Part shown: positions 25,378 to 48,443 of the stretch, in pieces
How positions within the stretch are numbered: position 1 is the stretch's first letter
Layout of the letters: every line of letters begins with the position of its first letter
Source: Candidatus Berkelbacteria bacterium CG10_big_fil_rev_8_21_14_0_10_43_13
Lineage (GTDB): Bacteria > Patescibacteriota > UBA1384 > XYA2-FULL-43-10 > 1-14-0-10-43-13
NCBI GenBank assembly: GCA_002773985.1
Contig: PEZW01000006.1
Span: 1 to 48,443, forward strand
DNA: 48,443 nt
Direction of reading: 5' to 3'
The notes under the pieces: generated by a model
What the model was told of the DNA's origin: nothing
Seen by the model: the letters and a program-made list of their open reading frames with translations, nothing else
The model's database searches: none
Made by a program: the position numbers and the translations under genes

Positions 25378-27531
25378 TCAAATTATGTCAAGTAAACACT
25401 CGGAGATATTTTCAATAAATCTTGATTTTTCGTTAAATTGCAATCGGCCATAAAGATTGCGCTCGCCGGCATGAATTAGATACAATCGTTCCTTGGCTCG
25501 AGTGATGCCGACATAACAAAGACGTCGCTCCTCCTCCATCTCGTTTTCATCCACTAAGGCCCGAGAATGTGGAAAGAGTCCTTCCTCTACGCCGATGACA
25601 AAAACAGCCCGGAATTCGAGTCCCTTGGCCGAATGGAGGGTCATCAGGGTGACGACACCACCGTCAGATTTAATCTGATCTGTGTCCTGTGTCAACGAAA
25701 CTTGTTGTAAAAATAATTCCAAGGCAGTCTCGCCGTCAATAAAATTGTCATCCTCGGAACCAGCGGTGTTCTTGAGAGTGGTGCCAGGGGATCCATTTAA
25801 TAAGTCATGGATTCCCGCTGTTCGACTGTCGCTCACAGTCTGAGTGCAATCGAAGACCTCCGCGGGAATGACAGACTGCATTTGAGCCTCAACCTGTGCC
25901 GCCACAGTTGAAAGTTCAAGCACGTTTTCCCATCTTCCCTCGCCCTCAGCCGTGCCATCGAGCAAATATTTCTTGTAACCGGATTTTTCAGCAATATTTA
26001 AGATCAATTGGTCTAAAGGCAGAGTTAAAGATGTTTTATGAAAATCGAAAAGCAACTCGTAAAACTGTTCCACTTTCGGTGAAAAATTGTTCAATTGTTC
26101 CATTGTTCCATTGCTAAATAAACTAAAATAGTTCGGCAATTCGCGTAATTTATCGATTGTTTTCTTACCTATTCCTCGCGGAACTGCGCTTACCGCTCGT
26201 TCAAATGATTCAAAATCAGCCGGATTATAAATCAGTCGCAAGAAAGCAATCATATTTTTAATCTCAGCTCGTTCATAGAACCGAAAACCGCCGACTATTT
26301 TGTAGGGAATCTTGAAACGCAAAAAGGTTTCCTCGATCGCTCGCGACTGGGCATTGGTTCGGTAGAGGACAGCAATATCACTATAATTACTGTTCGAAGC
26401 CGTAGGCTGAGAACTTCTCGCTCCACTCGAAGAATAATGACGCGCCAGCGATTTAATTTCCATCGCCACAAATTCGGCCTCATCCTTCTCGTTCAGTGCT
26501 TGATAAACCGTTATCGGCATACCCTCAGCCTTTTCTGTCCATAGTTTCTTATCGGTCTTGTTTTTGTTAAATTTGATGACATCGTTGGCCGCTGTCAAAA
26601 TCGTTTTACTTGAACGATAATTCTGTTCCAGCTTGATGACAACAGCGTTTTTGTAATCTTTCTCAAAGTTCAAGATATTGCGAAAATTGGCTCCTCGCCA
26701 ACTGTAGATACTTTGGTAATCATCACCAACAACCATAATATTTTTGTATTTCTTTGCTAATAACTTTGCCCAAATATACTGTGCCTGATTGGTGTCCTGA
26801 TACTCGTCAATCAAGATGTATTTAAATAATTTCTGGTATTTTTCCAAAATTTCCGGATTATTTTGAAAAAGAAAAACACAATTCATAATCAAATCGTCAA
26901 AATCCATCGTGTTTGTTTGACGTAAATATTTTTCGTAACGATCATAAACTCTGGCTGTGACTTTTTCAAAGGGCGAATTGACATATTTTTTGTACTCGGC
27001 AGAATCAATCAGCTCGTTTTTGGCGCCGGAAATGAAGCATTGAATTGAGCTTGGGTTAAAATTTTTCGGATTGATCTCCAAATCGCGCATTATGCGTTTA
27101 ATTATTGAAATCTGGTCATTGCTATCAGCAATCGTAAAATTGCGATTGTAATTGATAGAATCAGCTTCTCTTCTCAAGATCCTGACACAAACAGAGTGAA
27201 ATGTCCCGGCCCAAGGCAGACGCGTAGCGCCGGAATCAGGAATAAGGAATGAGGAATTAGGGTTTTCGCCCCCACCTTTATTCTTAATTCTTAATTCTTT
27301 ATTCAATAACTGCGAGACTCGAGCAGTTATTTCCCCAGCTGCTTTGTTCGTAAAAGTCACCGCCAAAATATTATAGGGCGAAACTTTTTTCTCTCGAATC
27401 AAATAAGCTATTCTGTGCGTCAGTGCCTTCGTCTTGCCGCTACCAGCGCCAGCCAGAACCAGCAGTGAACCTTCAGTGGTTAAGACTGCCTTTTGCTGTT
27501 CCGAATTTAGATTTTTTAACAACTCGTTCAC
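25378..27531 (-). CDS. pcrA: ATP-dependent DNA helicase, UvrD/PcrA family
   Basis: AGAGSGKT, DEYQDTN, TLHSAKGLEF and YVGITRA motifs. GTG start. Carries repeat-derived insertions. Confidence 0.93.
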   Translation of the reverse strand: MNELLKNLNSEQQKAVLTTEGSLLVLAGAGSGKTKALTHRIAYLIREKKVSPYNILAVTFTNKAAGEITARVSQLLNKELRIKNKGGGENPNSSFLIPDSGATRLPWAGTFHSVCVRILRREADSINYNRNFTIADSNDQISIIKRIMRDLEINPKNFNPSSIQCFISGAKNELIDSAEYKKYVNSPFEKVTARVYDRYEKYLRQTNTMDFDDLIMNCVFLFQNNPEILEKYQKLFKYILIDEYQDTNQAQYIWAKLLAKKYKNIMVVGDDYQSIYSWRGANFRNILNFEKDYKNAVVIKLEQNYRSSKTILTAANDVIKFNKNKTDKKLWTEKAEGMPITVYQALNEKDEAEFVAMEIKSLARHYSSSGARSSQPTASNSNYSDIAVLYRTNAQSRAIEETFLRFKIPYKIVGGFRFYERAEIKNMIAFLRLIYNPADFESFERAVSAVPRGIGKKTIDKLRELPNYFSLFSNGTMEQLNNFSPKVEQFYELLFDFHKTSLTLPLDQLILNIAEKSGYKKYLLDGTAEGEGRWENVLELSTVAAQVEAQMQSVIPAEVFDCTQTVSDSRTAGIHDLLNGSPGTTLKNTAGSEDDNFIDGETALELFLQQVSLTQDTDQIKSDGGVVTLMTLHSAKGLEFRAVFVIGVEEGLFPHSRALVDENEMEEERRLCYVGITRAKERLYLIHAGERNLYGRLQFNEKSRFIENISECLLDII
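25747..25872. repeat. Family-1 palindromes inside pcrA (one with an extra internal segment)
   Basis: GTCATCCTCGGAACC...CCAGGGGATCC and GGATTCCCGC-[~40 nt]-GCGGGAATGAC. Translated as SVIPAEVFDCTQTVSDSRTAGIHDLLNGSPGTTLKNTAGSEDD. Confidence 0.85.
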
Positions 27532-27653
27532 TTTATGAACTTTCTAACTTTATGAACTTTCTACTCACTGAGTATAACAATTCATCCGAACAAATGCCAA
27601 ACATACAATCCTTCGTCTGGACTCTGAACAGAATAATTTGTTAATATCTTCAT

Positions 27654-29875: not shown

Positions 29876-30457
29876 TTATTTATGAAAAATCATCGTGTTT
29901 TTTAGCACATTGACTATCTCCTGTTCGACAAACTCTTTGGTGATCTGAGAAGGTTCGAAATCACCGTGTGATCCGATGACTCCGCCCTGATTTGGCATAA
30001 AGGTTGAAACCGTAATTCCTATCTTGCGCGCATACTGATTTGACACAAATGAGATATAAGGCGTCGATTCTGGCTTATAAAAAGACCTGTCGACAGTTGC
30101 CGGGTAGATATTGAAGGTGATACTGGCAGGTCGACAATGTGCCGTCGCGTCGACAGATTCCTCGTCTTGAGAAACGTGATAGTCATGACCATAGGCGTTT
30201 AGTTGGTTTCCAACATCGACAAGCACTGGCCAAATTACATCTTTCTCAAGCCTAGTAAATTCAACCACAAATGCATTTTGGGCAGTTTTTTCTGCCTCTT
30301 TCTTTGTCTTAAGTCCGTTTAAGTCCTGACTATAGCGTGTCATCAAACTGTCAAGCTCTGTCTTATTGTTTTCTTGCACATAGCTCCTTGTTAGATTTGA
30401 GGAAATTATACCACATTTAGCAATTAGCCTATTAGTAATTAGCAAATAACTGCTCAT
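29876..30457 (-). CDS. Hypothetical protein
   Basis: 193-aa ORF of native composition. No motif recognised. Confidence 0.5.
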   Translation of the reverse strand: MSSYLLITNRLIAKCGIISSNLTRSYVQENNKTELDSLMTRYSQDLNGLKTKKEAEKTAQNAFVVEFTRLEKDVIWPVLVDVGNQLNAYGHDYHVSQDEESVDATAHCRPASITFNIYPATVDRSFYKPESTPYISFVSNQYARKIGITVSTFMPNQGGVIGSHGDFEPSQITKEFVEQEIVNVLKNTMIFHK

Positions 30458-30469
30458 TCATCCTCTTTG

Positions 30470-30570
30470 TCATCCTCGGGTTCAGCGGTGTGACTTGAGA
30501 GTGAAGCCCGGGGATCTGGGACATTTAGTTACAATTGTGCTGCCTGGATTCCCGCCTACGCGGGAATGAC
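30470..30570. repeat. Family-1 palindromic repeat unit (intergenic)
   Basis: GTCATCCTCGGGTTCAGCGG...AGCCCGGGGATC plus GGATTCCCGCCTACGCGGGAATGAC. The first half is the reverse complement of 47480-47528. Confidence 0.85.
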
Positions 30571-32074: not shown

Positions 32075-33778
32075 CTACTCTATCTCAAAAACTTCGGCGG
32101 CAATCTTATTCATGTCCTCTTTTTTTTCAGCTTGTATCGGCTTCGATTTACCATCATGAATTTTGCAGACAACGCGACAATTTTTGCCGATGACATTTGT
32201 AATAATCTTCGAGAGTATTTGCGCATGCTTAGACTCAGAAATTCTCTCCTTGTGAAATTTAAATTTTACCCCGATCGTCAATGTGTCGTCGGTCAGGTTA
32301 TCCGGCTTAGCATCACGCAGTAGCGCTGCCAAAGTCGCATTTTCTTTCTTTGTCTCCGAAATTATCTCCTGCCAGATGTCCTTCGTCATCTCCATCACCG
32401 GGACGGGACAGAGAATCTCAGGAGTATCAACTTCTTGATCAGATTTTCTGGTAGCCGCCTCGTTTTCTCCTTCATTTTTGTCATCCCGGACTGCGGCTCG
32501 AGATCCGGGATCCAGAGCCTGTCCCGATCTTGCCGAAGGAAAGTTTGGTTGCGATTGTGCCGCCTGGATTCCCGCCTTCGCGGGAATGACAGCTGCAATA
32601 TTTTGGTCTTGTTTAAGGTCTTGGATTTCAGATTTCAAATTTTTCTCAGCACTGAGTACTGAATCCTGAGTACTGAATCCTGAGTACTGTGTACTTTTGA
32701 CCACCGACAATTCCAGCGGCAATACCGGAATTGAAACCTCTTTGAAGAGCTTGCCATTTTCGATAAAAATCTGAAGCAAAAATAGAGCACGATCTTCGTC
32801 AGCCTGCCCAGCCAATTCAGTCAATCTTTTGATCTCTTCCTTGGTTCCGTCCAGTTGGATCGTCTTGGCAACTTTCAGGAGTACAACTTGGCGCAGTGTC
32901 GTGATGACAGCTCGGTTAAATTCGGCCAAATCATAACCTTGATTGTGAAGCTCTTGGGCGATTTTTAATCCCTCCTCCGGGATGTTATTAAAAATCGCCC
33001 CGATGAACTTCTCCACTTCGGCGTTTTCGGCCAAACCCAATATCTGTCTCGTTTCTGAAATCGTAATTTTTCCATTTGCACCGGCTGCGACCTGCTCGAG
33101 TAAACCCAGGGCATCTCGATGAGCACCCGATGCAGAGACAGCAATCAGGTCGAGTGAATCATCGTCTATCTCAATCTTTTCTGTCTTGGCGACTCTTTTC
33201 AGATTTTCCACCAGCTCTTCTCTGCCAGCTCGCTTGAAATCAAACCTCTGCGCTCGCGACAGGATGGTCGCCGGAATTTTGTGAATTTCCGTCGTCGCTA
33301 ATATAAAAACAACGTGCTCAGGCGGCTCCTCAAGCGTTTTCAACAAGGCGTTGAATGCGCTCTTCGAGAGCATATGAACTTCATCGATGATATATACTTT
33401 CTTTTTCAATTTCGTCGGCATCAGACGGGCTTTTTCGATCAAGTCACGAATGTCGTCGACACCGGTATGTGAAGCGGCATCGATTTCGATGACGTCAATC
33501 GCCCGACCGTCGTTGATGTCAACACAAGCTGTGCATTTATTGCATGGCTCCCCTGTCGTCGACTTGTTGTCTTTCTTGGCCGCTAAAATCTCCTCACAAT
33601 TTATCGCCTTAGCCAACAATCTTGCCGTTGATGTTTTGCCGATCCCACGCGGACCAGTCAGGAGATAAGCGTGAACAAGTTTATCACTTTTGACGCTCTC
33701 CAAAAGCGTCTGGACGACATGCCCTTGCCCAATCATTTCAGAAAAATTTTTTGATCTGTATTTTTGATAAAAAGCCAT
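32075..33778 (-). CDS. dnaX: DNA polymerase III subunit gamma/tau
   Basis: GPRGIGKTS, zinc module CNKCTAC, DEVHMLS, SRAQRF. ATG 33778 (MAFYQKYR) is the likelier start; the ORF-track start is 33829. Confidence 0.92.
   Translation of the reverse strand: MAFYQKYRSKNFSEMIGQGHVVQTLLESVKSDKLVHAYLLTGPRGIGKTSTARLLAKAINCEEILAAKKDNKSTTGEPCNKCTACVDINDGRAIDVIEIDAASHTGVDDIRDLIEKARLMPTKLKKKVYIIDEVHMLSKSAFNALLKTLEEPPEHVVFILATTEIHKIPATILSRAQRFDFKRAGREELVENLKRVAKTEKIEIDDDSLDLIAVSASGAHRDALGLLEQVAAGANGKITISETRQILGLAENAEVEKFIGAIFNNIPEEGLKIAQELHNQGYDLAEFNRAVITTLRQVVLLKVAKTIQLDGTKEEIKRLTELAGQADEDRALFLLQIFIENGKLFKEVSIPVLPLELSVVKSTQYSGFSTQDSVLSAEKNLKSEIQDLKQDQNIAAVIPAKAGIQAAQSQPNFPSARSGQALDPGSRAAVRDDKNEGENEAATRKSDQEVDTPEILCPVPVMEMTKDIWQEIISETKKENATLAALLRDAKPDNLTDDTLTIGVKFKFHKERISESKHAQILSKIITNVIGKNCRVVCKIHDGKSKPIQAEKKEDMNKIAAEVFEIE
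32480..32590. repeat. Family-1 palindromes inside dnaX
   Basis: GTCATCCCGGACTGCGGCTCGAGATCCGGGATCC ... GGATTCCCGCCTTCGCGGGAATGAC. Translated as VIPAKAGIQAAQSQPNFPSARSGQALDPGSRAAVRDDK. Confidence 0.9.
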
Positions 33779-33980: not shown

Positions 33981-34370
33981 AAATATGGGAATGATTCAAA
34001 CGAGCAAGTCCTAGAATTTTGAATTTTGGATATTGGATATTGAAACTTATTTGTTTCTTGCTTCTTGTATCTTGTTTCTTGTGTCTTCCATTGCTTTCTC
34101 ATTATAGGCTGTATCGGCCGCCAAAAAAAATACCTCTACGCAAGGTGTTAAAATCCCCAGTCCTATTTTAGAAATTAAAAATTAGAAATTAGAAATTGTC
34201 CCGTTTTCCCCATTCCTTCCACAGGGTTATGAACAAGCCAGTCAGCCGGTAAGCTTATCAGCTTATCAGCTTTTAAGCTTACAAACTGACTAACTGACTA
34301 ACTGACTGGCTGACTGGCTGATAGGCTGACTAGCTTGCTCGCTTAAATCTCCGCTTTTTCCTCGTCTATA

Positions 34371-38111: not shown

Positions 38112-38528
38112 TTAAACTTCCGGCAAGTCTAATTTCTCAAGAAAATCACTGGCATTGACTATTTTGGTTGTGCCAAACTTTTTCAAGGGAAGAATGTGCT
38201 TTTTATCGCCAGTCACGAGATAATCGGCTTGTGCCGACATTGCACACTCTAAAATATGGTTATCGTCTGCATTACTCTTAATTACATCCACTTTTTTATC
38301 AGGTTGTATGACTTTCACAAATTTTAATATTTCGAGAATAATTTTATCTGTCGTATTTTGACCATAACCGAATTTAGCGATAAAAATGCGTTCGATCTCG
38401 ACAATGATAAAATCGCTACAGTAAATCTCAAATTTTCCCTCTTTTGCCAAATCCAAAACCAGCGAAGGTTTGCTGTTTGGGAAAATTAAACCGGACAGAT
38501 AAATATTGGTGTCAAGGACGACTTTCAT
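38112..38528 (-). CDS. vapC: PIN-domain toxin
   Basis: MKVVLDTNIY start with conserved acidic residues. 1-nt overlap (TAATG) with the upstream antitoxin gene. Confidence 0.85.
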   Translation of the reverse strand: MKVVLDTNIYLSGLIFPNSKPSLVLDLAKEGKFEIYCSDFIIVEIERIFIAKFGYGQNTTDKIILEILKFVKVIQPDKKVDVIKSNADDNHILECAMSAQADYLVTGDKKHILPLKKFGTTKIVNASDFLEKLDLPEV

Positions 38529-38764
38529 TATAATCTCTCTGAATCTACCATTTTTTCAATGTCGTCTTCTGAGCTAATGTCCAGTTTTCTGGCCTTTGTT
38601 ACGATGTCGCTCTGCAAAATAGCCCAATTACTCTTGGTTCTGATATAGAAGACCGCAGCTTCTTTTATGAGTTCCGAACGGCTGCGATATTCTTCTCTTG
38701 CCTTTTGATCAATTTCAGATAACAATTGCTCCGGCAAGGAAATGTTTACAGTTTTAACTTTCAT
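38528..38764 (-). CDS. Ribbon-helix-helix (CopG/MetJ-type) antitoxin
   Basis: 78 aa. N-terminal beta-strand VNISLPEQLLSEID followed by helices RSRSELIKEA. Confidence 0.7.
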   Translation of the reverse strand: MKVKTVNISLPEQLLSEIDQKAREEYRSRSELIKEAAVFYIRTKSNWAILQSDIVTKARKLDISSEDDIEKMVDSERL

Positions 38765-39145: not shown

Positions 39146-39212
39146 TGGTACCGCGTATGGGAGTCGAACCCATGATCTTCGCCGTGAGAGGGCGATGTCC
39201 TAGACCACTAGC
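39146..39212 (-). pseudogene. tRNA-Glu(CUC)-like sequence lacking a 5' acceptor strand
   Basis: D-arm, anticodon arm (TCGCC-CTCTCAC-GGCGA), T-arm (ATGGG-TTCGACT-CCCAT), ACGCGGT-A-CCA are all present. The expected 5' ACCGCGT/GCCGCGT is replaced by the hairpin repeat GGGAGATCCCCCTTCGGGGGAAC (39221-39243). Confidence 0.55.
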
Positions 39213-39263
39213 CTCCCGGAGGGAGATCCCCCTTCGGGGGAACGAACACATAACTTTAAAGTA

Positions 39264-40839: not shown

Positions 40840-42309
40840 TTATTGTAACTTTTCGATTGCCAGATTCAGTCGTTTTAGTGTCTCGTCCTTGCCCAGCGCT
40901 AGGGCCAGCTCGACTGGGGAGGGTGATTTTTCCTCACCCGATAGAGCGACGCGCACCGGCCAGAAAACATCACCATTAGTCAAATTATTATTCTCAACAA
41001 TCACCGACAGCGATTGTTGAATTGTTTCATTGTTCCATTGCTCAATTGTTGGCAACTTCGATTGAACCAATCTCAATGCTTGAAGGGTTGTAGCCTGATC
41101 GGATTTTTTGAAAACCAAGATCCCTGCGACATACTCGGGAGTTTGGCGTAATTTCAAGATGTACTCAGCCGCTTCCTTTAGCGTCTTGTATCCACCGCGC
41201 CCGATCAAATTTAGTTCTGCTTTTTGAATATTTGGTAATTTAAAATTTTGGAATTGATTTAGGATTTCGGATTTAGGATTTAGGATTTCTTCGGTAATGT
41301 AGTGTGCATTGATCGAATTGAGCTTTTCAATATTAAATATCGCCGGCGCTTTATTGAGATTTTTCAATTTAAATTCGCCAACTAAATCATCAAGAGAGAA
41401 AAATTCTCGCTCGTCCTTCGGATTCCAGCCCAGCAGGGCGATAAAATTTATGATCGCCTCCGGCAGATAACCAAGCGATTTGAACTCCTCGACCGAGGTC
41501 GCACCATGACGTTTTGACAATTTACTTTTATCAGGCGCCAAGATCATCGAGAAATGGCCAAACTTCGGCTGATCCCAGCCAAGCGCTTCATAGAGAATGA
41601 TATGTTTTGGCGTTGATGACAACCACTCCTCCGAGCGCAAAACGTAATTGATCCCCATCTCGTGATCGTCAACGACAGATGCCAAGTGATAGGTCGGATA
41701 ACCGTCTGATTTTAGTAGCACTTGGTCGTCGAAAAGTGACAGATCAAATTTGACGTCGCCACGGACCAAATCATCGACAACTACCTCGCCCGTCGCCGGC
41801 ATTTTCAGTCGAATTACGTAGTCGCCATCACTAGCAAGTTGGGGACGTTTCTCCCCAGAGAGAAGCGTCCCCGGACGATTTACAACATCTTCAATTTTAA
41901 TATTCTTCTCTCGACAAGTGCCATCATAGCCCGGCAATTTGCCAGACAACTTTAATTCCTCACCTTTAACTTTCAACTCATCTTTCGTACAAGTACAGAT
42001 ATAGGCCTTGCCCTCATCAACCAATTTCAAAGCGTATTTTCGATATAAATCCAGTCTCTTGGACTGAGTCACGATATCGTCAATATTATCAGGAACCAAG
42101 CCCAGCCACTCTAGCGCCTCGACCAATCGCTTGTCAGAACCTTCGACGTAGCGCGCTCGATCGGTGTCCTCGATCCGCAAATAAAACTTGCCGCCGGTAC
42201 TCCGAGCCGCCAGATATTCAAACAGCGCCGTCCGCGCTCCACCGATGTGAAGCTCTCCGGTCGGACTCGGCGCAAAACGAGTAATAATATTGTTGTAATT
42301 CATGATCAT
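40840..42309 (-). CDS. gltX: Glutamyl-tRNA synthetase
   Basis: FAPSPTGELHIGGARTAL (HIGH) and KLSKRHG (KMSKS) motifs. Confidence 0.95.
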   Translation of the reverse strand: MIMNYNNIITRFAPSPTGELHIGGARTALFEYLAARSTGGKFYLRIEDTDRARYVEGSDKRLVEALEWLGLVPDNIDDIVTQSKRLDLYRKYALKLVDEGKAYICTCTKDELKVKGEELKLSGKLPGYDGTCREKNIKIEDVVNRPGTLLSGEKRPQLASDGDYVIRLKMPATGEVVVDDLVRGDVKFDLSLFDDQVLLKSDGYPTYHLASVVDDHEMGINYVLRSEEWLSSTPKHIILYEALGWDQPKFGHFSMILAPDKSKLSKRHGATSVEEFKSLGYLPEAIINFIALLGWNPKDEREFFSLDDLVGEFKLKNLNKAPAIFNIEKLNSINAHYITEEILNPKSEILNQFQNFKLPNIQKAELNLIGRGGYKTLKEAAEYILKLRQTPEYVAGILVFKKSDQATTLQALRLVQSKLPTIEQWNNETIQQSLSVIVENNNLTNGDVFWPVRVALSGEEKSPSPVELALALGKDETLKRLNLAIEKLQ

Positions 42310-42447
42310 AATCTAGCACAATTACTTCTGTCTGTCATCCTGAGCGTCAGCGAAGGATCTCATGTAATCTCGTATTAGGTATTTCGTATTACGTATTAGG
42401 CAGATAACCGCATTATACGTTATACGCTATACGTTATACGATTTTTT

Positions 42448-42807: not shown

Positions 42808-43002
42808 AGATTTAGGACTTAGGGTTTAGGATTTAGATTTTAGGACATTAGTCTTTATCCCTTATCTTTAGTCATTTTAATAATACTTTATACCTTATAC
42901 GTAATACGTAATGTTCTTATTCTACCACTTGTTCACAACTTGCAAAGAGAAAAAGGTGTATACTATTTCCTAACATCCCCACGGGAGAGGAGATCCACCG
43001 TC

Positions 43003-43587: not shown

Positions 43588-44307
43588 TCAAATCAGTTCT
43601 CGTCTACTCGAATTTAATTGATTAGCATTAAGCTTAAGCAAGAAAATTAAATCATCTATCATCTTATTTTTGACATAGTTTTTTTGTTTCGTGTCCAATA
43701 CCTCTCCCAAACCGTGAAGAATGTTGAGTGACTTTTCGTTTTTTTCGAGATAACCAAGCAACTTCTCAAAATATTTTGATACTTTAATACCAGTGCGATT
43801 TTCGATAATCTCTTTTTTTATCGACCACTGTTTGTCCAAAAAAAACCAGGCGTCAAACCAATCACGATTGACCATTTTTTTACGACCGAGAACAGCCACA
43901 AGTTTGTTCGCAAACATACAATCTTGATCCATTACCAGTATCGGCAGACCGAAATACTCGAGAAGTTGATAAGTGTTGTCAATATATGTTTTTCTTGAGA
44001 TTTCGATCTTAATATTATGCTCGCCTTTTTTGTACGAAACGAGAAAAAAGATGGTTTTTTCTTTTATTTGTTCATCCTTAATCTCGCCATACTTTGAGCA
44101 AATTGCTTTTACTTGATTAAAAATTTTTTTATTGTCTCTATCATCCAAAAGATCAAAATCCAGGTCAGTCGAAAATCTAGGCAACCCATAAAAAAGATAC
44201 GCTGCGGTACCGCCCTTGAATCCAAGCTTTTGACGTAGCTCTGGCTCGCTGTAAATATCAACCAATATTCTTGTCATCAAATTTTCATGCAGAGATCTAT
44301 CAAGCAT
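43588..44307 (-). CDS. AbiEii/AbiGii-family nucleotidyltransferase toxin (type IV TA / abortive infection)
   Basis: FKGGTAAYLFYGLPRFSTDLDFD core. 8-nt overlap with the upstream AbiEi-like gene. Confidence 0.85.
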   Translation of the reverse strand: MLDRSLHENLMTRILVDIYSEPELRQKLGFKGGTAAYLFYGLPRFSTDLDFDLLDDRDNKKIFNQVKAICSKYGEIKDEQIKEKTIFFLVSYKKGEHNIKIEISRKTYIDNTYQLLEYFGLPILVMDQDCMFANKLVAVLGRKKMVNRDWFDAWFFLDKQWSIKKEIIENRTGIKVSKYFEKLLGYLEKNEKSLNILHGLGEVLDTKQKNYVKNKMIDDLIFLLKLNANQLNSSRRELI

Positions 44308-44884
44308 AAGCCTCCTTTAGTTTTTTAACTTTTTCCAATACTTTAGAACTTTGATAAATATTCGCTATCGCAAGACATTTATCCCAATCGACATTGGATA
44401 AATTATCAAAGGCAAAGCCTGACCATAAATATATTAGGTCTACAATCGCTCGCTCTTTAGTTGAAATTGTTTTGTCTCCTAGAAACCTTAACCCAAGTGG
44501 ATTTAGTAGTACCGAATCTTTGATTTTCAAATATACATATTCCGTTTCACCGACAACTATCGTTCGACTTTCCCTAGATACAGAGAAGACTCTCGAGTCA
44601 TATTGAAAGTTAACCCCCTCACGCGCCAGCACTGAGTACAATCCGAAATATGAGGGCACAATCATCTTGTTGGCCAACTCTACTACATCGTATTTACCAT
44701 CGAGGGCATAAAATCCCTTGCGAATAAAATATAATTTTTCTGATTTGAGATAACGATTGATCTTTGTCTTTAGATAATTTGAATTGTCAATTTGCCAGAT
44801 CAAAGCCAAATCTTTTATTGAAAAGACTGTTTTGTTGCTCTTGTACAGCGACACAATCGCATTTTCTTTGTTTAGTGGCGTCAT
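44300..44884 (-). CDS. AbiEi-family antitoxin/transcriptional regulator
   Basis: N-terminal wHTH-like region plus VPSYFGLYSVLAREGV segment, typical of AbiEi. Gene order is AbiEi-AbiEii. Confidence 0.78.
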   Translation of the reverse strand: MTPLNKENAIVSLYKSNKTVFSIKDLALIWQIDNSNYLKTKINRYLKSEKLYFIRKGFYALDGKYDVVELANKMIVPSYFGLYSVLAREGVNFQYDSRVFSVSRESRTIVVGETEYVYLKIKDSVLLNPLGLRFLGDKTISTKERAIVDLIYLWSGFAFDNLSNVDWDKCLAIANIYQSSKVLEKVKKLKEAYA

Positions 44885-44949
44885 AGATAAGTTATCAATT
44901 ATGATTACTTATATCTTACGCTAATATTTATGTCTTGTCAATAGCACAC

Positions 44950-44979
44950 AAAAAAACACCGCTTTCGCGGTGTTTTTTT
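44950..44979. terminator. Bidirectional intrinsic terminator
   Basis: A7-CACCGC-TTTC-GCGGTG-T7. Related hairpins lie at 45984-46008 and 46957-46982. Confidence 0.75.
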
Positions 44980-44997
44980 CTTCTCCTCGAGCTCTTC

Positions 44998-45066
44998 CTC
45001 CCCTCTCCGAGGGGAGGCTAGAGCCTGCCCTGAGCGAAGCAAGGCGGAGCCGAATGGGTGGGGTGC
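44998..45066. repeat. Family-2 hairpin repeat with a nested insertion
   Basis: CCTCCCCTCTCCGAGGGGAGGCTAGAG-[CCTGCCCTGAGCGAAGCAAGGCGGAGCCGAA]-TGGGTGGGGTG. Confidence 0.7.
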
Positions 45067-45070
45067 AACT

Positions 45071-45172
45071 TTATGAACTTTCTAACTTTACAAACTTTTG
45101 AACTTTCCACTTTATGAACTTTCTAACTTTACAAACTTTATGAACTTTATGAACTTTATGAACTTTCCAACT
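45071..45172. repeat. Degenerate tandem word tract (TTT-N2-3-AAC units, 7-9 bp)
   Basis: TTTATGAAC TTTCTAAC TTTACAAAC TTTTGAAC TTTCCAC ... TTTCCAAC. Followed by the conserved block TATAGACTCTCT..GAGAGGAGTTGGCAG (45173-45215, also at 47237-47283). Confidence 0.85.
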
Positions 45173-45227
45173 ATAGACTCTCTTTGATCTGCGAGCGAAA
45201 TGAGAGGAGTTGGCAGTAGTCAAAAAA

Positions 45228-45554
45228 TCAAGCAATCTTAATACCGTGCTTTTTTATTTCATAAGTCATTATTGAGTCCTCATCTTCAAATTCTTTGGGT
45301 GACAGACCATGCGGCTCGATCCGAAGATCGACATCAAATCTCAGTTTTCCGAGTTTAAAGCGATTTTGAAACCATTTTTTGACGTCTACTTCGTCAAATT
45401 TATCGGAGATTACGGCGATATCAATATCACTTTCCTCATCAAAACTGCCCTTGGCAAAAGAACCAAAAAGATAGATCTGTTTAAACGGAAAATGATTCTG
45501 CCGCAGATGTTGGGCATATCTTTTGCCTATTTGTTTTGCTTCAGTTGTTGACAT
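45228..45554 (-). CDS. MNT-type nucleotidyltransferase (HEPN/MNT module, pair 1)
   Basis: GSFAKGSFDEESDIDIAV (GS...DxD) motif. Overlaps the HEPN gene by 28 nt. Confidence 0.85.
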   Translation of the reverse strand: MSTTEAKQIGKRYAQHLRQNHFPFKQIYLFGSFAKGSFDEESDIDIAVISDKFDEVDVKKWFQNRFKLGKLRFDVDLRIEPHGLSPKEFEDEDSIMTYEIKKHGIKIA

Positions 45555-45934
45555 AATTTTTCTTTCAAACTTTTAACTTCACTTAAATATTTTTGGGTTA
45601 TTTCTCTAGTTGCAAATTTATAAGCTCGGTATTTAATTTCCGGATATCTGGCTTCCAAATTAAAATCGTTTATTTCACTTAATAGATTGTTCTCTTTTTT
45701 ACTTAATTTCAAGCTGGCACGGACTGCCAACTTCGATAAATCGTGAATTTTTGGCGCCTCCTCTTGGCTTGTTCGGACGATGTGAGCCTTGAGCACTTTT
45801 TCCAAAATCAAATGACCGAGAAACAATGTCCAGACAAAATGGCCAAGCTTGAACAGACCGTCCATCACCGCAACATCATTTTCAGCACTTTCTAACCAGT
45901 ACTCAATCAATTTTTGAACTCTTTTCCTGTCCAT
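45527..45934 (-). CDS. HEPN-domain protein (pair 1)
   Basis: MDRKRVQKLIEYWLESAENDV...HLILEKVLKAHIV...APKIHDL...ARYPE helices. Upstream ORF-track codons (to 46042) run into the repeat array. Confidence 0.8.
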   Translation of the reverse strand: MDRKRVQKLIEYWLESAENDVAVMDGLFKLGHFVWTLFLGHLILEKVLKAHIVRTSQEEAPKIHDLSKLAVRASLKLSKKENNLLSEINDFNLEARYPEIKYRAYKFATREITQKYLSEVKSLKEKLCQQLKQNK

Positions 45935-46014
45935 CTTGGCAAGATTATAGCATATTTTGCCAGAAAAAAATATATTGTCATACAAAAAAACACCACTTTC
46001 GCGGTGTAGTAAAT

Positions 46015-46143
46015 GTAGCCCACGCTTTAGCGTGGCTAGCAAACTAAAGTTTGCGCTACGGGGGTATTGTAGTCCACGCTTTAGCGTGTGTTCAAGCTGA
46101 GGCTTGATCTACATTTCAATCCGTAGCCCACGCTTTAGCGTGG
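46015..46143. repeat. REP/BIME-like array A: five alternating GTAG-hairpin units, 54-bp period
   Basis: GTAGCCCACGCTTTAGCGTGG at 46015, GTAGTCCACGCTTTAGCGTG at 46069, GTAGCCCACGCTTTAGCGTGG at 46123. The two 33-nt intervals each contain an inverted GTAG hairpin (rc GTAGCGCAAACTTTAGTTTGC; rc GTAGATCAAGCCTCAGCTTGA). Confidence 0.85.
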
Positions 46144-46192
46144 TGCAACCTTATAAACTTTCAAACTTTCTACTTTATAAACTTTCTACTTT

Positions 46193-46570
46193 CTAAAGCA
46201 ATTTCATCAAAATAAATTTCTTATATCGATTTGCTAAATTCTTGTCGAATGTCACAAAGGTTTTGCAATTATTTACAACGGCACATGCAACCTGAAGTGC
46301 GTCTTCAAAATCATTGCCCTGGATATTGTGAACGGCCCACATCACTTCAGCATTACCACAATCAGTAACACGGTGGCTCTTTAACAATCCAAGCAAGACT
46401 TCTAGAGATATTCCGTCTTTCTGACCGAAGTAAACAAACAGGTGCGCTGTTAACGGCGAGATTACAACATCATGCGAGGCAATATATTTTTGGGCCTTTT
46501 CCGCGCCTTTACGATCTTTTAGAAAAGATTCCAGTAAAACATTGGCATCAACAAAAACAGAGTTATTCAT
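46193..46570 (-). CDS. vapC: PIN-domain toxin
   Basis: MNNSVFVDANVLLE start (ATG 46570) overlapping the antitoxin stop. C-terminal FEDALQVACA...TFD. The ORF-track extension to 46738 is out of frame within the antitoxin gene. Confidence 0.8.
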   Translation of the reverse strand: MNNSVFVDANVLLESFLKDRKGAEKAQKYIASHDVVISPLTAHLFVYFGQKDGISLEVLLGLLKSHRVTDCGNAEVMWAVHNIQGNDFEDALQVACAVVNNCKTFVTFDKNLANRYKKFILMKLL

Positions 46571-46865
46571 GATCACTCTTATACTTTGGGTTATTATCAA
46601 GCATGTTGTGATAAAGCTCTTTGACTGATTTAGCGGAATCAAGCTCGGATTTTCGTGAAGTCTTGTTGACCTCACGAACTTTTGCAACATACGCCTGCAT
46701 AGCTGACAAGCTACCGGGTTTTTCAAAGACCTTTCCATCGTAGTCCGGCTGGATCACAAAAGCGGACCTGGATCGGTAGGTCACTTTGATAGACTCTCCT
46801 CTACCGACTCTCTTCACAATTTCATCAAGATTGTCTCTTAGGTTTTTTGCTGTAATAGTTTTCAT
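46563..46865 (-). CDS. Phd/YefM-type antitoxin
   Basis: MKTITAKNLRDNLDEIVKRVGRGESIKVTYRSRSAFVI N-terminus is typical of Phd/YefM. Coupled to the PIN gene. Confidence 0.7.
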   Translation of the reverse strand: MKTITAKNLRDNLDEIVKRVGRGESIKVTYRSRSAFVIQPDYDGKVFEKPGSLSAMQAYVAKVREVNKTSRKSELDSAKSVKELYHNMLDNNPKYKSDHE

Positions 46866-46984
46866 AGTTGAAGTTTAACTTAAACTTAAACTCTTGTCAA
46901 GGGATTATTCTATTGTCAACCCATTGTCAACCACCCCATCATTTTTATAACACAAAAAAACACCACTTTCGTGGTGTAGTATTT

Positions 46985-47143
46985 GTAGCCCATACTTTCG
47001 TATCGGCCGGAAACGTGGGTGAAGATGAAGCGTGACTAGCAAACTAAAGTTTGCGCTACGGGGGTATTGTAGTCCACGCTTTAGCGTGTGTTCAAGCTGA
47101 AGCTTGATCTACATTTCAATCCGTAGCCCACGCTTTAGCGTGG
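46985..47143. repeat. REP/BIME-like array B (first unit carries a 30-bp insertion)
   Basis: Same five units as array A with near-identical intervals. Units at 46985 (expanded), 47069 and 47123. Confidence 0.85.
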
Positions 47144-47149
47144 TGCAAC

Positions 47150-47236
47150 TTTACAAACTTTATGAACTTTATGAACTTTCCAACTTTATGAACTTTCTAA
47201 CTTTACAAACTTTATGAACTTTATGAACTTTCCAAC
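47150..47236. repeat. Degenerate tandem word tract (TTT-N2-3-AAC units)
   Basis: TTTACAAAC TTTATGAAC TTTATGAAC TTTCCAAC TTTATGAAC TTTCTAAC ...; homologous to 45071-45172. Confidence 0.85.
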
Positions 47237-47336
47237 TATAGACTCTCTCTCTGATCTGCGAGCGAAATGAGAGGAGTTGGCAGCTGTTTACCCTGAGCAA
47301 AGCCGAAGGGCTGTCGCACCCTAGTAACTGCTCACT

Positions 47337-47528
47337 GTCATTCCCGCCCCGTATCAGAGTACGGGGTAAACTCCGGCGGGTCATCGACTCTGAGGGATGA
47401 GCCCTCAGGCTCAGACTCGAATGGGAATCCAGACAGCACAATCGCGACCAAACCTCCCTGCCTTGCCGGCAGGCAGGCTGGATCCCCGGGCTTCACTCTC
47501 AAGTTACACCGTCGAACCCGAGGATGAC
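47337..47528. repeat. Nested cluster of family-1 palindromes
   Basis: GTCATTCCCGC...GGAATCC hairpin interrupted by CCCCGTATCAGAGTACGGGG and by the 17789-type repeat. Then GGATCCCCGGGCTTCACTC...CCCGAGGATGAC. Confidence 0.8.
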
Positions 47529-48000
47529 AAAGAAGATGACTGAGCAGTTACGTACCCTGCCCTATTTTCAGAATGAAAAATATGCTATGATTATCATCAA
47601 GATGGAAGAAGAAAGAACAAAAAAATCAGTTGATTACTGGCTCGAAACCGCAGCCGATGATTTAGTCACTGTCGAGGCCTTGTTCCAATTAAAACGCTAC
47701 GTCGGAACACTTTTTTGGGGACACTTGCTGCTGGAAAAAATTTTAAAGGCCCACGTTGTCAAAATCACAAAAGCAGAGGCTCCTTATACCCACGATCTTC
47801 TAAGACTGGCAAAACTAGCCAAGCTTGATTTGAGCAAAGAAGACGAGGACCTGCTTGACGCAGTAAACAGATTCAACATCCGAGCCAGATATCCTGATTA
47901 CAAGCTGGCTATTCACAAAGAAGCAACCGCAAAATACACTAGAAAATACGTTGTCAAAATTAAAGTGTTGTATGAGAATTTATGTCAAAAGATCAAGTAA
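47524..48000 (+). CDS. HEPN-domain protein (pair 2)
   Basis: Paralog of 45527..45934 (SVDYWLETAADDL...HLLLEKILKAHVV...APYTHDL...ARYPD). ATG 47524 lies in a repeat end. ATG 47602 (MEEERTKK) matches the paralog start. Confidence 0.8.
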   Translation: MTKKMTEQLRTLPYFQNEKYAMIIIKMEEERTKKSVDYWLETAADDLVTVEALFQLKRYVGTLFWGHLLLEKILKAHVVKITKAEAPYTHDLLRLAKLAKLDLSKEDEDLLDAVNRFNIRARYPDYKLAIHKEATAKYTRKYVVKIKVLYENLCQKIK

Positions 48001-48299
48001 AAAAAATTGTAAAAATTTATGCCGACTATCTGATCCGACAAGGTTTTGCATTTCAGAGTATTTATTTATATGGATCATATGCTAGGGGTAACGCTCATGA
48101 GTGGAGTGATATCGATGTCGCCGTCATTTCGCCAAAATTTGCCGGCAAAGACTGGGATGAAAACGAACAACAGCTTTGGCGCTGGAGACGTGATATAGAT
48201 ATTCGTATCCAGCCTCTTGGTTTCTCACCTGATGAATTTGAAAAAAATCTCTCTCCCCTCATTAGCGAGGTCAAGAAAACCGGAATCAGAATTAAATAA
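47982..48299 (+). CDS. MNT-type nucleotidyltransferase (pair 2)
   Basis: GSYARGNAHEWSDIDVAV motif. 19-nt overlap with the HEPN gene. Paralog of 45228..45554. Confidence 0.85.
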   Translation: MSKDQVKKIVKIYADYLIRQGFAFQSIYLYGSYARGNAHEWSDIDVAVISPKFAGKDWDENEQQLWRWRRDIDIRIQPLGFSPDEFEKNLSPLISEVKKTGIRIK

Positions 48300-48351
48300 T
48301 AGTCTGTATTTTGAATCTCTAGCTTATAAGATTAAATTCTACTTTTTAATC

Positions 48352-48443
48352 GTAGCTCACGCTTTCTTGTCGGCCGGAAACGTGGGTGAAGATGAAGCGT
48401 GACTAGCAAACTAAAGTTTGCGCTACGGGGGTATTGTAGTCCA
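48352..48443. repeat. REP/BIME-like array C (cut by the window end)
   Basis: Expanded first unit as in array B, inverted GTAG hairpin, then GTAGTCCA at 48436. Confidence 0.8.

What the first reader, a model, noticed from the sequence alone, without database searches (positions are those of the whole stretch)
46015..46143. GTAG-hairpin (REP/BIME-like) arrays with an exact 54-bp period flank every TA cassette
Three direct copies of GTAG(C/T)CCACGCTTTAGCGTG start at 46015, 46069 and 46123. Each 33-nt interval holds an inverted GTAG-hairpin of a different sequence.

The structure is therefore five alternating-orientation units, each a 5' GTAG followed by a palindrome. This is the hallmark of REP elements organised as BIMEs, which are mobilised by RAYT (TnpA-REP) transposases.

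The whole array recurs at 46985-47143 and 48352-end, with a 30-bp expansion of the first unit. Each time it lies between toxin-antitoxin cassettes, preceded by an A-run/hairpin terminator, and arrays A and B are followed by a word tract (array C is cut by the window end). No RAYT gene is in the window.

The arrays may be cassette boundaries (recombination sites), insulators or mRNA-stabilising elements. I do not know of REP/BIME systems being described in CPR-like genomes.
Basis: partly seen in the sequence, partly recalled or inferred. Interest (0 to 1): 0.7.

Follow-up and report, generated by a model that had tools for sequence, protein, structure and literature searches.

The report
REP/BIME hairpin arrays in a CPR genome
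The repeated GTAG-hairpin arrays are real and belong to the known REP/BIME class of bacterial repeats, whose dedicated transposase (RAYT) I found flanked by the same kind of arrays in related ultra-small (CPR) bacteria, so this is a known system in a phylum where it seems not to have been described.

Summary
Array A (46015-46143) holds five 20-21-nt units in alternating orientation, each GTAG + 2 nt + 5-bp stem + TTYA loop, with an exact 54-bp period. It recurs at 46985-47143 and at 48352-end.

The REP/BIME reading is supported.
- The unit belongs to a broad family, GTAG-NN-CAnnC-TTYA-GnnTG, whose stem covaries: 140 of 146 non-seed matches have complementary nn/nn.
- In Saccharibacteria and Berkelbacteria MAGs and in unbinned metagenome contigs, genes that pass NCBI's REP-associated tyrosine transposase model are flanked on both sides by the same alternating arrays.
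- Array A aligns end to end with those flanking arrays.
- Unit geometry and loop conservation match the experimentally studied Marinomonas REPtron Mb.

Three details are overstated or unproven. Not every TA cassette is flanked. Array C has no terminator in front. No RAYT is in the window, and I could not find the one belonging to this genome.

The arrays are 95-99% identical, while the neighbouring HEPN/MNT pairs share only about 48% protein identity. This is therefore not a gene-inclusive segmental duplication. I found no evidence for array-mediated cassette shuffling.

Verdict: a new member of a known kind, of moderate interest.

The parts
46015..46143 (.). Array A. Five REP units: + 46015-46035, - 46039-46059, + 46069-46088, - 46092-46112, + 46123-46143. 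It reads as two head-to-head doublets plus one single unit, with a 54-bp period.
46985..47143 (.). Array B. The first unit is expanded (46985-47035, 51 nt). It is followed by - 47039-47059, + 47069-47088, - 47092-47112, + 47123-47143.
48352..48443 (.). Array C, cut by the window end. Expanded first unit 48352-48402, then - 48406-48426, then the start of a + unit at 48436. It is complete in L061 10362-10530.
45990..46007 (-). Terminator-like hairpin (ACACCGCGAAAGTGGTGT + T7) on the minus strand. It lies directly downstream of array A in the direction of transcription of the PIN operon.
46960..46977 (-). The same terminator-like hairpin, next to array B.
   Evidence: (D7)
46147..46197 (.). Word tract (AACTTTNNN)n between array A and the PIN stop codon. 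One 16-nt unit (46163-46178) is absent in L061.
47147..47235 (.). Word tract after array B, followed by a shared 39-nt motif at 47245-47283. That motif is also at 45178-45216.
   Evidence: D1-D4, D10
45228..45934 (-). Context: HEPN (45527-45934) and nucleotidyltransferase/MNT (45228-45554) pair.
46193..46865 (-). Context: PIN toxin (46193-46570) and a 100-aa upstream partner (46563-46865). The promoter-like site is at 46900-46872.
47536..48299 (+). Context: second HEPN/MNT pair on the opposite strand. It shares 48-49% protein identity with the first pair.

Best explanation
The arrays are repetitive extragenic palindromes (REPs) arranged as BIME-like arrays.

Structure (shown):
- Each unit is a 20-21-nt single-strand hairpin: GTAG, 2 nt, a 5-bp stem CAnnC/GnnTG, and a loop T-T-Y-A.
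- Units of two classes alternate in orientation: CACGC-like units and CAA(G/A)C units.
- This gives head-to-head doublets of about 45 nt separated by 9-10 nt, hence the 54-bp period.
- The same arrays flank RAYT genes on both sides in related CPR genomes, forming 'REPtrons'.

Mechanism (inferred from characterised RAYTs, E. coli and Marinomonas):
- The units are substrates of a REP-associated tyrosine (HUH/Y1) transposase, a RAYT or TnpA-REP, of a clade common in Patescibacteria.
- The enzyme binds the folded hairpin on single-stranded DNA and uses GTAG as a guide.
- It cuts and rejoins at a nearby CT or CA dinucleotide. That is how such units multiply.

History and effect in this window (inferred):
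- The RAYT is encoded outside the window.
- The three arrays are copies of one array, propagated en bloc inside a toxin-antitoxin island. They share their spacers and are 95-99% identical, whereas the cassettes between them are unrelated or only about 48% identical.
- On the minus strand, arrays A and B sit immediately upstream of an intrinsic terminator and the next promoter; for array A this places it just after the PIN stop codon, whereas no minus-strand gene lies upstream of array B.
- I therefore expect array A to be transcribed as a hairpin-rich 3' end. There it may stabilise or insulate transcripts, as REPs do in E. coli. This is a by-product or secondary role, not the reason the arrays exist.
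For: Unit and array anatomy.

Family and covariation:
- The exact 20-mer is found in 60 loci across several phyla, with partner hairpins of different stems.
- 140 of 146 non-seed matches to GTAGNNCANNCTTYAGNNTG have complementary NN/NN, against 6% expected. Ten stem types occur.
- 98.4% of cells are paired. The covariation score is 0.466 against 0.096 in shuffles, and it collapses when the partners are slid.

RAYT link:
- ORFs L004 2513-3058 and L035 448-1014 score 99.8 and 88.6 bits on NF047646 (cutoff 80). They also hit Pfam Y1_Tnp.
- The HUH motif (NHYH) and the Tyr motif (NYIHxNP) are invariant.
- The proteins are homologous to E. coli TnpA-REP, PDB 4ER8, at E 2e-9.
- 10 of 12 distinct CPR-type RAYT loci, plus all 3 loci from other phyla, carry family units within 350 bp on both sides. 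These include Berkelbacteria RIFOXYA2_FULL_43_10.
- About 80 protein clusters 55-70% identical exist. Where named, they are from Patescibacteria or Berkelbacteria.
- The window's nearest relative by GluRS is Berkelbacteria, at 66%.
- Array A aligns over its full 129 nt at 77% with RAYT-flanking arrays in L161, L004 and L160.

Architecture across CPR loci:
- Head-to-head gaps have a mode of 7 nt and tail-to-tail gaps a mode of 9 nt. Five of the six isolated doublets are head-to-head.
- 37 of 46 doublets are heterotypic.
- Units occur on several contigs of single MAGs, in ordinary short intergenic spacers.

Match to experiment:
- Across 577 GTAG-N2-stem5-loop4 hairpins, with no constraint placed on the loop, T12 is 93%, T13 95% and A15 97%, while position 14 is free.
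- This mirrors the SELEX result for Marinomonas REP-Mb, which has the same geometry (PMC8266576).

Not a gene-inclusive duplication. Terminators and promoters.
Against: - No RAYT is in the window. I could not identify the RAYT of this genome. The one RAYT that co-occurs in the same samples (P0036) is flanked by units with a GGAG tag, so it belongs to another organism. Four other candidates come from other samples.
- Within the 48 kb all units sit in one 2.5-kb region, so genome-wide dispersal in this organism is not shown.
- The nearest sequenced relative has no units in its syntenic 21 kb.
- The three arrays share their spacers. They could therefore have spread by ordinary recombination or gene conversion, without any RAYT activity.
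- Cleavage chemistry, transcription through the arrays and any effect on mRNA are all inferred, not shown.
Confidence: 0.85

Rival explanations
1. The units are REP-derived, but in this genome they are inert relics. One intergenic module (terminator, array, word tract) was copied three times by homologous recombination, gene conversion or replication slippage while the TA island was assembled. No RAYT acts on them today.
For: - The arrays share not only units but also inter-unit spacers, at 95-99% identity.
- They also share flanking non-REP sequence: the terminator hairpin at 85%, TGCAAC plus the word tract, and the 39-nt motif (D5-D7 and D10).
- All copies lie within 2.5 kb. No RAYT is in the window, and no RAYT of this genome was found.
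- A fourth copy of the backbone (44950-45216) lacks the array.
Against: - The left edge of homology among A, B and C falls exactly at the first GTAG. Array C lacks the terminator. The array therefore behaves as a discrete insert rather than as part of a fixed module.
- RAYTs of this clade are common in the window's closest relatives.
- In Marinomonas, REPs also cluster locally although the RAYT is active in vitro (PMC8266576).
Confidence: 0.3
2. The hairpins are selected at the RNA level. They would form a structured 3'-UTR or small RNA that regulates or stabilises the toxin-antitoxin transcripts, and their resemblance to REPs would be incidental.
For: - The minus-strand transcript through array A folds strongly, with z = -6.0.
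- The array lies between a stop codon and an intrinsic terminator.
- The stem covariation would also fit an RNA structure.
- Isolated doublets in other CPR loci sit in short spacers between co-directional genes.
Against: - Units occur in both orientations within every array. Array C has the opposite orientation relative to its upstream gene compared with array A.
- The same units flank RAYT genes on both sides.
- The invariant 5' GTAG and the loop rule T12, T13, A15 match the DNA recognition rules of a RAYT.
- There is no Rfam match.
- The family is not tied to TA genes elsewhere.
Confidence: 0.1
3. The arrays are recombination sites that bound mobile gene cassettes, analogous to integron attC sites (VCR-like) in a cassette array rich in TA genes.
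For: - Repeats of 130-160 nt separate small TA cassettes, and arrays A and B are exactly 1000 bp apart.
- TA cassettes are typical of chromosomal integrons (established knowledge).
- One contig (L065) carries the HEPN/MNT(+) cassette at 99.4% identity with a different upstream neighbour.
Against: - There is no GTTRRRY/RYYYAAC core site at or near any array.
- The arrays fold as local hairpins, not as one long imperfect palindrome.
- The cassettes carry their own promoters and lie in both orientations.
- Other TA cassettes in the window lack the arrays.
- The L065 breakpoint lies at a different repeat, the GTCAT-tag element at about 47325-47423, not at a GTAG array.
- About 20 further contigs from other samples are collinear with the window.
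Confidence: 0.04
4. A degenerate or miniature CRISPR array, with 21-nt repeats and 33-nt spacers.
For: Three direct repeats with a 54-bp period and intervals of constant length.
Against: - The 'spacers' are themselves inverted members of the same hairpin family.
- They are identical in all three arrays.
- The same repeats flank RAYT genes.
- There is no CRISPR hit in Rfam.
Confidence: 0.01

Closest known systems
REPtron Mb of Marinomonas sp. MWYL1 (group 3 TnpA-REP; Corneloup et al. 2021, PMC8266576)
   Same: - The unit geometry is identical: GTAG, 2 nt, a perfect 5-bp stem and a 4-nt loop T12 T13 T14 A15.
- In SELEX, T12, T13 and A15 are required and position 14 is free. Stem positions tolerate swaps, but mismatches hurt.
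- The natural variation here shows the same rule: T 93%, T 95%, A 97% with position 14 free, and a covarying stem.
- REPs are concentrated locally rather than spread evenly.
   Different: - The CPR RAYT carries NHYH and YIH[H/Q]NP motifs. Quentin et al. tabulate DH[LF]H and YI[VI]ANP for group 3.
- I did not compare the two proteins directly.
- The host phylum differs.
- Here two unit classes alternate in long arrays.
E. coli REP/BIME and REPtron Ec (TnpA-REP, PDB 4ER8)
   Same: - The REPs are GTAG-tagged.
- Two REP classes alternate in orientation (Y/Z), giving BIMEs.
- The RAYT gene is flanked by REPs.
- The CPR RAYT is homologous at E 2e-9 over 134 residues.
   Different: - E. coli REPs are imperfect palindromes of about 35 nt with an essential bulge, and the loop sequence is unimportant.
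- The units here are 20 nt, perfect, and have a conserved loop.
- IHF or gyrase binding by BIMEs (established knowledge) cannot be tested here.
GTAG-tagged REP families of Cyanobacteria, Chloroflexi, Planctomycetes and Verrucomicrobia (Di Nocera et al. 2013, PMC3733652; Quentin et al. 2018 class 2 subclasses, PMC6006769)
   Same: - The RAYTs recovered with the CPR query come from these phyla. They are flanked by GTAG(T)-NN-stem-C TTYA G-stem units, often in alternating arrays.
- The tag and the loop are the same.
- Head-to-head and tail-to-tail dimers and clusters occur as described.
   Different: - The stem consensus is lineage-specific, for example AAGCAC or GAGGAC in Nostocales and ACCGGC in Planctomycetes.
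- The CAnnC/GnnTG subtype is shared by CPR, Kiritimatiellia and other PVC MAGs, and one MAG deposited as 'uncultured Deferribacteres'.
- Neither paper lists any CPR or Patescibacteria genome.
REPINs (Bertels & Rainey 2011, PMC3116915)
   Same: The smallest dispersed form in CPR loci is an inverted doublet with GTAG on the outside. Five of the six isolated doublets have this form.
   Different: - REPIN arms are near-identical and form one long hairpin.
- Here the two arms are usually of different classes (37 of 46), so only the GTAG/CTAC ends and the conserved stem positions can pair across arms.
- Population-level properties were not tested.
Integron attC arrays with TA cassettes (e.g. Vibrio superintegron VCRs)
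   Same: The overall layout is similar: repeats of roughly 130 nt between small, often TA, cassettes.
   Different: There are no attC core sites. There is no single long imperfect palindrome. The cassettes have their own promoters and mixed orientation. Cassette exchange at the arrays was not seen.

Membership tests
REP (GTAG-tagged repetitive extragenic palindrome) | A short palindrome preceded at its 5' end by the tetranucleotide GTAG | tested here: met
   Ten units in the window fit GTAG-N1-2-stem5/6-loop4. Three expanded or cut units are also present.
REP (GTAG-tagged repetitive extragenic palindrome) | Hairpin potential maintained across copies by compensatory changes | tested here: met
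   140 of 146 non-seed matches have a complementary variable stem dinucleotide, in 10 types. 98.4% of cells are paired, with covariation 0.466 against 0.096 in shuffles.
REP (GTAG-tagged repetitive extragenic palindrome) | Extragenic location | tested here: met
   All three arrays lie between called genes. In other CPR loci the units lie in intergenic spacers.
REP (GTAG-tagged repetitive extragenic palindrome) | Many copies dispersed over the genome of the same organism | not testable with these tools
   Only 48 kb (plus 2.5 kb in L061) of this genome is available, and all units are in one 2.5-kb region. In other CPR MAGs, units occur on two or more contigs per MAG.
REP/RAYT system (REPtron) | A RAYT gene (HUH + catalytic Tyr, Y1 family) flanked by the cognate REPs | tested here: met
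   Met for the repeat family in related genomes. The proteins exceed the NF047646 cutoff, the motifs are conserved, and 4ER8 is a homologue. Ten of 12 CPR-type loci and 3 of 3 loci from other phyla are flanked on both sides.
REP/RAYT system (REPtron) | A cognate RAYT in the same genome as these arrays | not testable with these tools
   None is in the window. Five candidate RAYTs were traced to contigs and none could be tied to this organism. The array 30-mer found nothing in the metagenome collection.
BIME (bacterial interspersed mosaic element) | REPs regularly spaced in alternating orientation | tested here: met
   The window arrays read + - + - + with a 54-bp period. CPR arrays have periods of 52-57 bp, with head-to-head and tail-to-tail gaps tightly distributed.
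BIME (bacterial interspersed mosaic element) | Two REP classes that alternate (Y and Z in E. coli) | tested here: met
   37 of 46 doublets pair a CAA(G/A)C unit with a non-CAA unit. Random pairing would give about half. The window shows the same pattern.
BIME (bacterial interspersed mosaic element) | Binding of host proteins (IHF, DNA gyrase, Pol I) to the mosaic | not testable with these tools
   Needs biochemistry.
REPIN | Two near-identical inverted REPs forming one long hairpin, dispersed as the replicating unit | tested here: inconclusive
   Isolated doublets exist, and 5 of the 6 are head-to-head. Their arms are mostly of different classes, however.
Integron attC site | R''/L''-L'/R' imperfect palindrome with GTTRRRY and RYYYAAC core sites | tested here: not met
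   Neither core motif is in or beside any array. The fold consists of local hairpins.
CRISPR array | Direct repeats separated by unique spacers | tested here: not met
   The intervals are inverted members of the same hairpin family, and they are identical in the three arrays.

The most novel reading that the evidence does not exclude
In these very small genomes the REP arrays might be more than passengers. They could serve as the landmarks at which a toxin-antitoxin/defence island is built and reshuffled. RAYT-catalysed single-strand cutting and joining, or recombination between near-identical arrays, would move array-bounded cassettes. That would amount to an integron-like cassette system without an integron integrase.

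The evidence does not exclude this:
- The arrays are 95-99% identical around unrelated cassettes.
- In Berkelbacteria locus L035 a RAYT sits next to a HEPN/MNT pair.
- One contig shows the HEPN/MNT cassette in another context.
Probability: 0.07. Interest if true: 0.7.

Novelty: new member of a known kind. Interest (0 to 1): 0.38.

Why it matters
REP/RAYT systems are described mainly in Proteobacteria, Cyanobacteria and a few other phyla. Genomes that carry a RAYT are reported to be larger on average than those without (PMC6006769). Finding complete REPtrons and BIME-like arrays in roughly 1-Mb Patescibacteria extends the system to a large, poorly studied branch of bacteria.

It also gives a ready explanation for a class of intergenic repeats that fragment CPR assemblies; many contigs of this population end at the arrays.

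The family is a useful natural dataset. Its stems vary freely while the GTAG tag and loop positions 12, 13 and 15 stay fixed. This reproduces the in-vitro recognition rules of a distant RAYT. A sister lineage with a GGAG tag offers a test of the guide-sequence model.

It does not reveal a new kind of mechanism.

Tried and rejected
- Rfam, at gathering thresholds and in permissive mode, has no family over the arrays.
- A metagenome scan with a 30-mer spanning units 3 and 4 found nothing, although the contig is known from JGI samples. The window's own sequence seems absent from that collection.
- I searched for this genome's own RAYT. P0036 occurs in the same samples (ERZ27293400, ERZ909571) but is flanked by units with a GGAG tag and different spacers. 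P0067 is Berkelbacteria RIFOXYA2. P0014, P0042 and P0037 come from other samples. I gave this up.
- The syntenic locus in the nearest genome (Berkelbacteria LacPavin, GluRS 66%) has no units, so it gives no information on how the island was built.
- I looked for strain-level cassette shuffling. About 20 contigs from other samples are collinear with the window. The one exception (L065) breaks at a different repeat.
- The CRISPR and attC readings were considered and rejected.
- A decayed RAYT inside the island is rejected, because tblastn finds nothing at E<=10.
- I did not annotate all window ORFs with Pfam. The absence of an integron integrase in the first 38 kb is therefore not formally shown.
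Full report
**1. The observation**

Reading 44800-48443 and searching for GTAGYCCACGC confirm exact copies at 46015, 46069 and 46123. Further exact copies are at 47069 and 47123, and variants are at 46985 and 48352. There is no other exact copy in the 48,443 bases.

A scan for GTAG followed by a perfect hairpin finds minus-strand units whose GTAG is at 46059 (GTAGCGCAAACTTTAGTTTGC) and 46112 (GTAGATCAAGCCTCAGCTTGA). The same holds at 47059, 47112 and 48426. Array A is therefore + - + - +. It reads as two head-to-head doublets (GTAG on the outside, 2-3 nt between the hairpins) separated by 9-10 nt, plus a final single unit. That layout gives the exact 54-bp period.

Arrays B (46985-47143) and C (48352 to the window end) repeat it. 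In both, the first unit is 51 nt instead of 21 nt.

Single-stranded array A folds at -38.8 kcal/mol, against -18.3 +/- 2.8 for shuffles (z = -7.3).

Three details of the finding do not hold:
- The PIN_3/RHH pair at 38112-38764 and the AbiEii pair at 43588-44884 have no units. The left flank of the first HEPN/MNT pair has none either.
- Array C has no terminator hairpin in front of it.
- A longer contig of the same population (L061) shows what follows array C. It is a word tract, other GC-rich hairpins and a GC-rich ORF, not another TA cassette.

**2. The unit belongs to a widespread, structurally constrained family**

The exact 20-mer GTAGYCCACGCTTTAGCGTG occurs in 60 loci of the species-representative genome collection. 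The hosts include Kiritimatiellia and other PVC bacteria, Saccharibacteria, Berkelbacteria, one MAG deposited as 'uncultured Deferribacteres', and a KSB1 MAG.

Next to it lie partner hairpins with different stems, such as CAGCC-TGAA-GGCTG and CAAGC-TAAA-GCTTG, each ending in CTAC. The common form is GTAG-NN-CAnnC-TTYA-GnnTG.

I then searched all fetched DNA with GTAGNNCANNCTTYAGNNTG, placing no constraint on the two variable stem positions. Of 146 matches other than the seed 20-mer, 140 have complementary nn/nn, against 6% expected, in ten different dinucleotide types. On 61 distinct units, 98.4% of cells are paired. The covariation score is 0.466 against 0.096 +/- 0.020 in shuffles, and it collapses when the 3' partners are slid.

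Rfam has no family for the region.

**3. The link to RAYT**

While mapping units and ORFs in the CPR loci, I found two homologous ORFs of about 185 aa, each flanked on both sides by arrays of these units:
- L004 2513-3058 (Saccharibacteria)
- L035 448-1014 (Berkelbacteria)

Both pass NCBI's equivalog model for the REP-associated tyrosine transposase, NF047646, at 99.8 and 88.6 bits against a cutoff of 80. Both hit Pfam Y1_Tnp. The HUH motif (NHYH) and the tyrosine motif (NYIHxNP) are invariant. The only solved structure matched is E. coli TnpA-REP, 4ER8, at E 2e-9.

Searching the genome and metagenome collections with these proteins recovered the same arrangement repeatedly. With the loci fetched by exact protein look-up added, I tallied 15 distinct RAYT loci. 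Ten of the 12 CPR-type loci, and all 3 loci from other phyla (Pontiellaceae L034 and the 'Deferribacteres' MAG L106 and L111), have family units within 350 bp on both sides. Typical patterns are + - + - + (- +) upstream and - + - + downstream, with a -10-like TATAAT between the last unit and the start codon. This is the 'REPtron' arrangement (PMC6006769).

The big protein database holds about 80 clusters that are 55-70% identical. Where a source names them, they are called only 'transposase' or 'hypothetical protein', from Patescibacteria or Berkelbacteria.

The window itself is from a relative of Berkelbacteria. Its GluRS is 66% identical to that of a Berkelbacteria MAG, and the next hit is at 49%.

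Array A aligns over its whole 129 nt at 77% identity with RAYT-flanking arrays in L161, L004 and L160. Unit order, class and spacing are therefore conserved, not just the 20-mer.

More distant RAYTs recovered with the same query come from Cyanobacteria, Chloroflexi and Planctomycetes. They are flanked by units with the same tag and loop but lineage-specific stems. These correspond to the GTAG REPs already described in those phyla (PMC3733652).

**4. Architecture**

Across 20 CPR loci the units alternate:
- Head-to-head gaps are 2-13 nt, with a mode of 7.
- Tail-to-tail gaps are 6-14 nt, with a mode of 9.
- Five of the six isolated doublets are head-to-head.

Doublets are heterotypic. In 37 of 46, a CAA(G/A)C unit pairs with a non-CAA unit (CACGC, CAGCC and others). 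With near-equal class frequencies, random pairing would give about half. This parallels the Y/Z alternation of E. coli BIMEs. The window's arrays follow the same rule.

In single MAGs, units occur on several contigs and in short spacers between ordinary co-directional genes. One example is Berkelbacteria RIFOXYA2_FULL_43_10, whose RAYT is on one contig (L262) and whose arrays are on another (L053).

**5. The closest experimentally characterised relative**

Corneloup et al. (PMC8266576) studied REPtron Mb of Marinomonas sp. MWYL1. Its REP is GTAG, 2 nt, a perfect 5-bp stem and the loop T12 T13 T14 A15. This is the same geometry and numbering as here. Their findings were:
- The RAYT cuts single-stranded REP DNA at CT and CA dinucleotides 5' and 3' of the hairpin.
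- GTAG acts as a guide.
- SELEX requires T12, T13 and A15 and leaves position 14 free.
- Stem swaps are tolerated, but mismatches are not.

I collected 577 GTAG-N2-stem5-loop4 hairpins from all fetched loci, with no constraint on the loop. Position 12 is T in 93%, position 13 is T in 95%, position 15 is A in 97%, and position 14 is T/C/A/G at 58/34/6/2%. The natural variation therefore reproduces the in-vitro rules.

The proteins are not obviously of the same subgroup. Quentin et al. tabulate DH[LF]H and YI[VI]ANP for group 3, whereas the CPR proteins have NHYH and YIH[H/Q]NP. I did not place them phylogenetically.

**6. What the three copies in the window are**

The cores of A and B are 107/108 identical, and B and C are 87/92 identical. 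The two HEPN/MNT pairs share only 48-49% protein identity and 66% DNA identity, and they lie in opposite orientations. The cassette between A and B is an unrelated PIN pair.

The copies do share their spacers and some flanking sequence: the terminator hairpin at 85%, TGCAAC plus the word tract, and a 39-nt motif. They are therefore copies of one array, not independent accretions of units.

Homology among A, B and C begins exactly at the first GTAG. A fourth copy of the backbone (44950-45216) has other GC-rich hairpins in the slot where the array would be. The array thus behaves as a discrete insert. I cannot tell whether it spread by RAYT action or by recombination.

**7. Position relative to transcription**

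On the minus strand the order is: PIN stop codon (46193), word tract, array A, an intrinsic-terminator-like hairpin with a T-run (46007-45990), a promoter-like site (45981-45954), then the HEPN/MNT operon. Array B is likewise followed by a terminator (46977-46960) and the promoter of the PIN operon (46900-46872).

Array A is therefore expected to be part of the 3' end of the PIN transcript. A stabilising or insulating effect, as known for E. coli REPs, is plausible but is only an inference.

**8. Cassette shuffling**

Contigs carrying the exact MNT, PIN and MNT(-) proteins come from about 20 samples. They are collinear with the window, and many end at the arrays.

One contig, L065, has the HEPN/MNT(+) cassette at 99.4% identity but a lipoprotein-like gene upstream. 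The breakpoint lies at a different repeat, the GTCAT-tag element at about 47325-47423, not at a GTAG array.

Between the window and L061, the only differences in 10.5 kb are one 16-nt word-tract unit, a 1-nt deletion in array C and one substitution.

**9. The literature**

Searches for RAYT or REPIN together with candidate phyla radiation, Patescibacteria or Saccharibacteria found no description of REP/RAYT systems in these bacteria. The two broad surveys list none.

[quoted passage not shown] Quentin et al. report that genomes carrying a RAYT are larger on average.

**10. Verdict**

The REP/BIME interpretation is right. The cognate enzyme family exists in the window's relatives, in the canonical REPtron arrangement.

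This is a known kind of system in a phylum where it appears undescribed. The cassette-boundary idea is unsupported but not excluded.

Noticed in passing
window 16029, 16088, 18207, 18256-18329, 25872, 30447-30570, 32480, 32590, 33980, 42334-42365, 47325-47555; L065 667-835: A second hairpin repeat family is dispersed through the window. Its members carry a GTCAT tag, for example GTCATTCCCGCGAAGGCGGGAATCCAG and GTCATCCCGGAC..ATCCGGGATCCAG. The core is nearly identical to the Neisseria REP ATTCCCGCGCAGGCGGGAATC quoted in bioRxiv 10.1101/2021.07.10.451892. At 47325-47555 two such hairpins form a MITE-like element with terminal inverted repeats GTAACTGCTCA. Compared with L065, one of its hairpins is split by an insertion of about 80 nt.
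   Followed up: partly
window-wide, e.g. 20630-20709, 27232-27304, 32651-32695, 34014-34335, 41256-41288, 42371-42440, 42809-42912, 27530-27563, 45067-45172: Dozens of intergenic tracts consist of 7-9-nt words repeated 3-6 times, each with its own word. Several come as inverted partners that would form long hairpins built of tandem words, for example GGAATAA x4 facing TTAATTC x4 at 27232-27304, and ATTAGGA facing CCTAATT at 20630-20709. The AACTTTATG word next to the arrays also occurs at 27530-27563, far from any GTAG unit.
   Followed up: partly
window 46163-46178: One 16-nt unit of the word tract beside array A is absent from the otherwise 99.8% identical contig L061. The tract is therefore length-polymorphic between samples.
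   Followed up: yes
L061 11190-12705 (about 0.7-2.2 kb beyond the window end): A 368-aa ORF of conspicuously high G+C (11460-12566, minus strand) has no Pfam hit on record. It is flanked by direct repeats of about 45 nt (TTCACCTGTT.C.CAACTCAAAGC...GGCTTTCAGTTGAGGAAGGGTT). It looks like a foreign insertion.
   Followed up: no
L254-L259 (RAYT P0036; samples ERZ27293400, ERZ909571 and others): A RAYT 63% identical to the Berkelbacteria one is flanked by units of the same hairpin family, but most of them carry GGAG/CTCC instead of GTAG/CTAC. This is a natural variant for testing whether the tetranucleotide co-evolves with the enzyme or guides cleavage.
   Followed up: partly
L001, L009, L036, L039, L042, L047, L048 (Kiritimatiellia/Verrucomicrobia): In PVC genomes a tail-to-tail doublet (..CCAGCCTGAAGGCTGGACTAC - 15 nt - GTAGTCCACGCTTTAGCGTG..) sits inside a larger element. 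That element is bounded by inverted repeats of about 23 nt (GGCGCATCTGCGATTCGGTGCA), giving a composite MITE-like form of the same REP family.
   Followed up: no
L065 1-700 versus window 46700-47423: The HEPN/MNT(+) cassette, with the start of array C, occurs at 99.4% identity next to a different upstream gene encoding a lipoprotein-like 182-aa ORF. This is either a second genomic copy or a rearranged strain.
   Followed up: partly
window 39157-39214 (minus strand): Rfam reports a third tRNA match that is partial (34 bits, model positions 9-63), next to tRNA-Glu and tRNA-Gln. ARAGORN does not call it. It may be a truncated or unusual tRNA.
   Followed up: no
L088, L095, L097, L099, L108, L110, L114, L119 and others (cyanobacterial RAYT loci): GTAG units lie inside the RAYT coding region of many cyanobacterial homologues. 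This matches the REP insertions within tnpA-REP genes reported for subclass 2.4 by Quentin et al. 2018.
   Followed up: no
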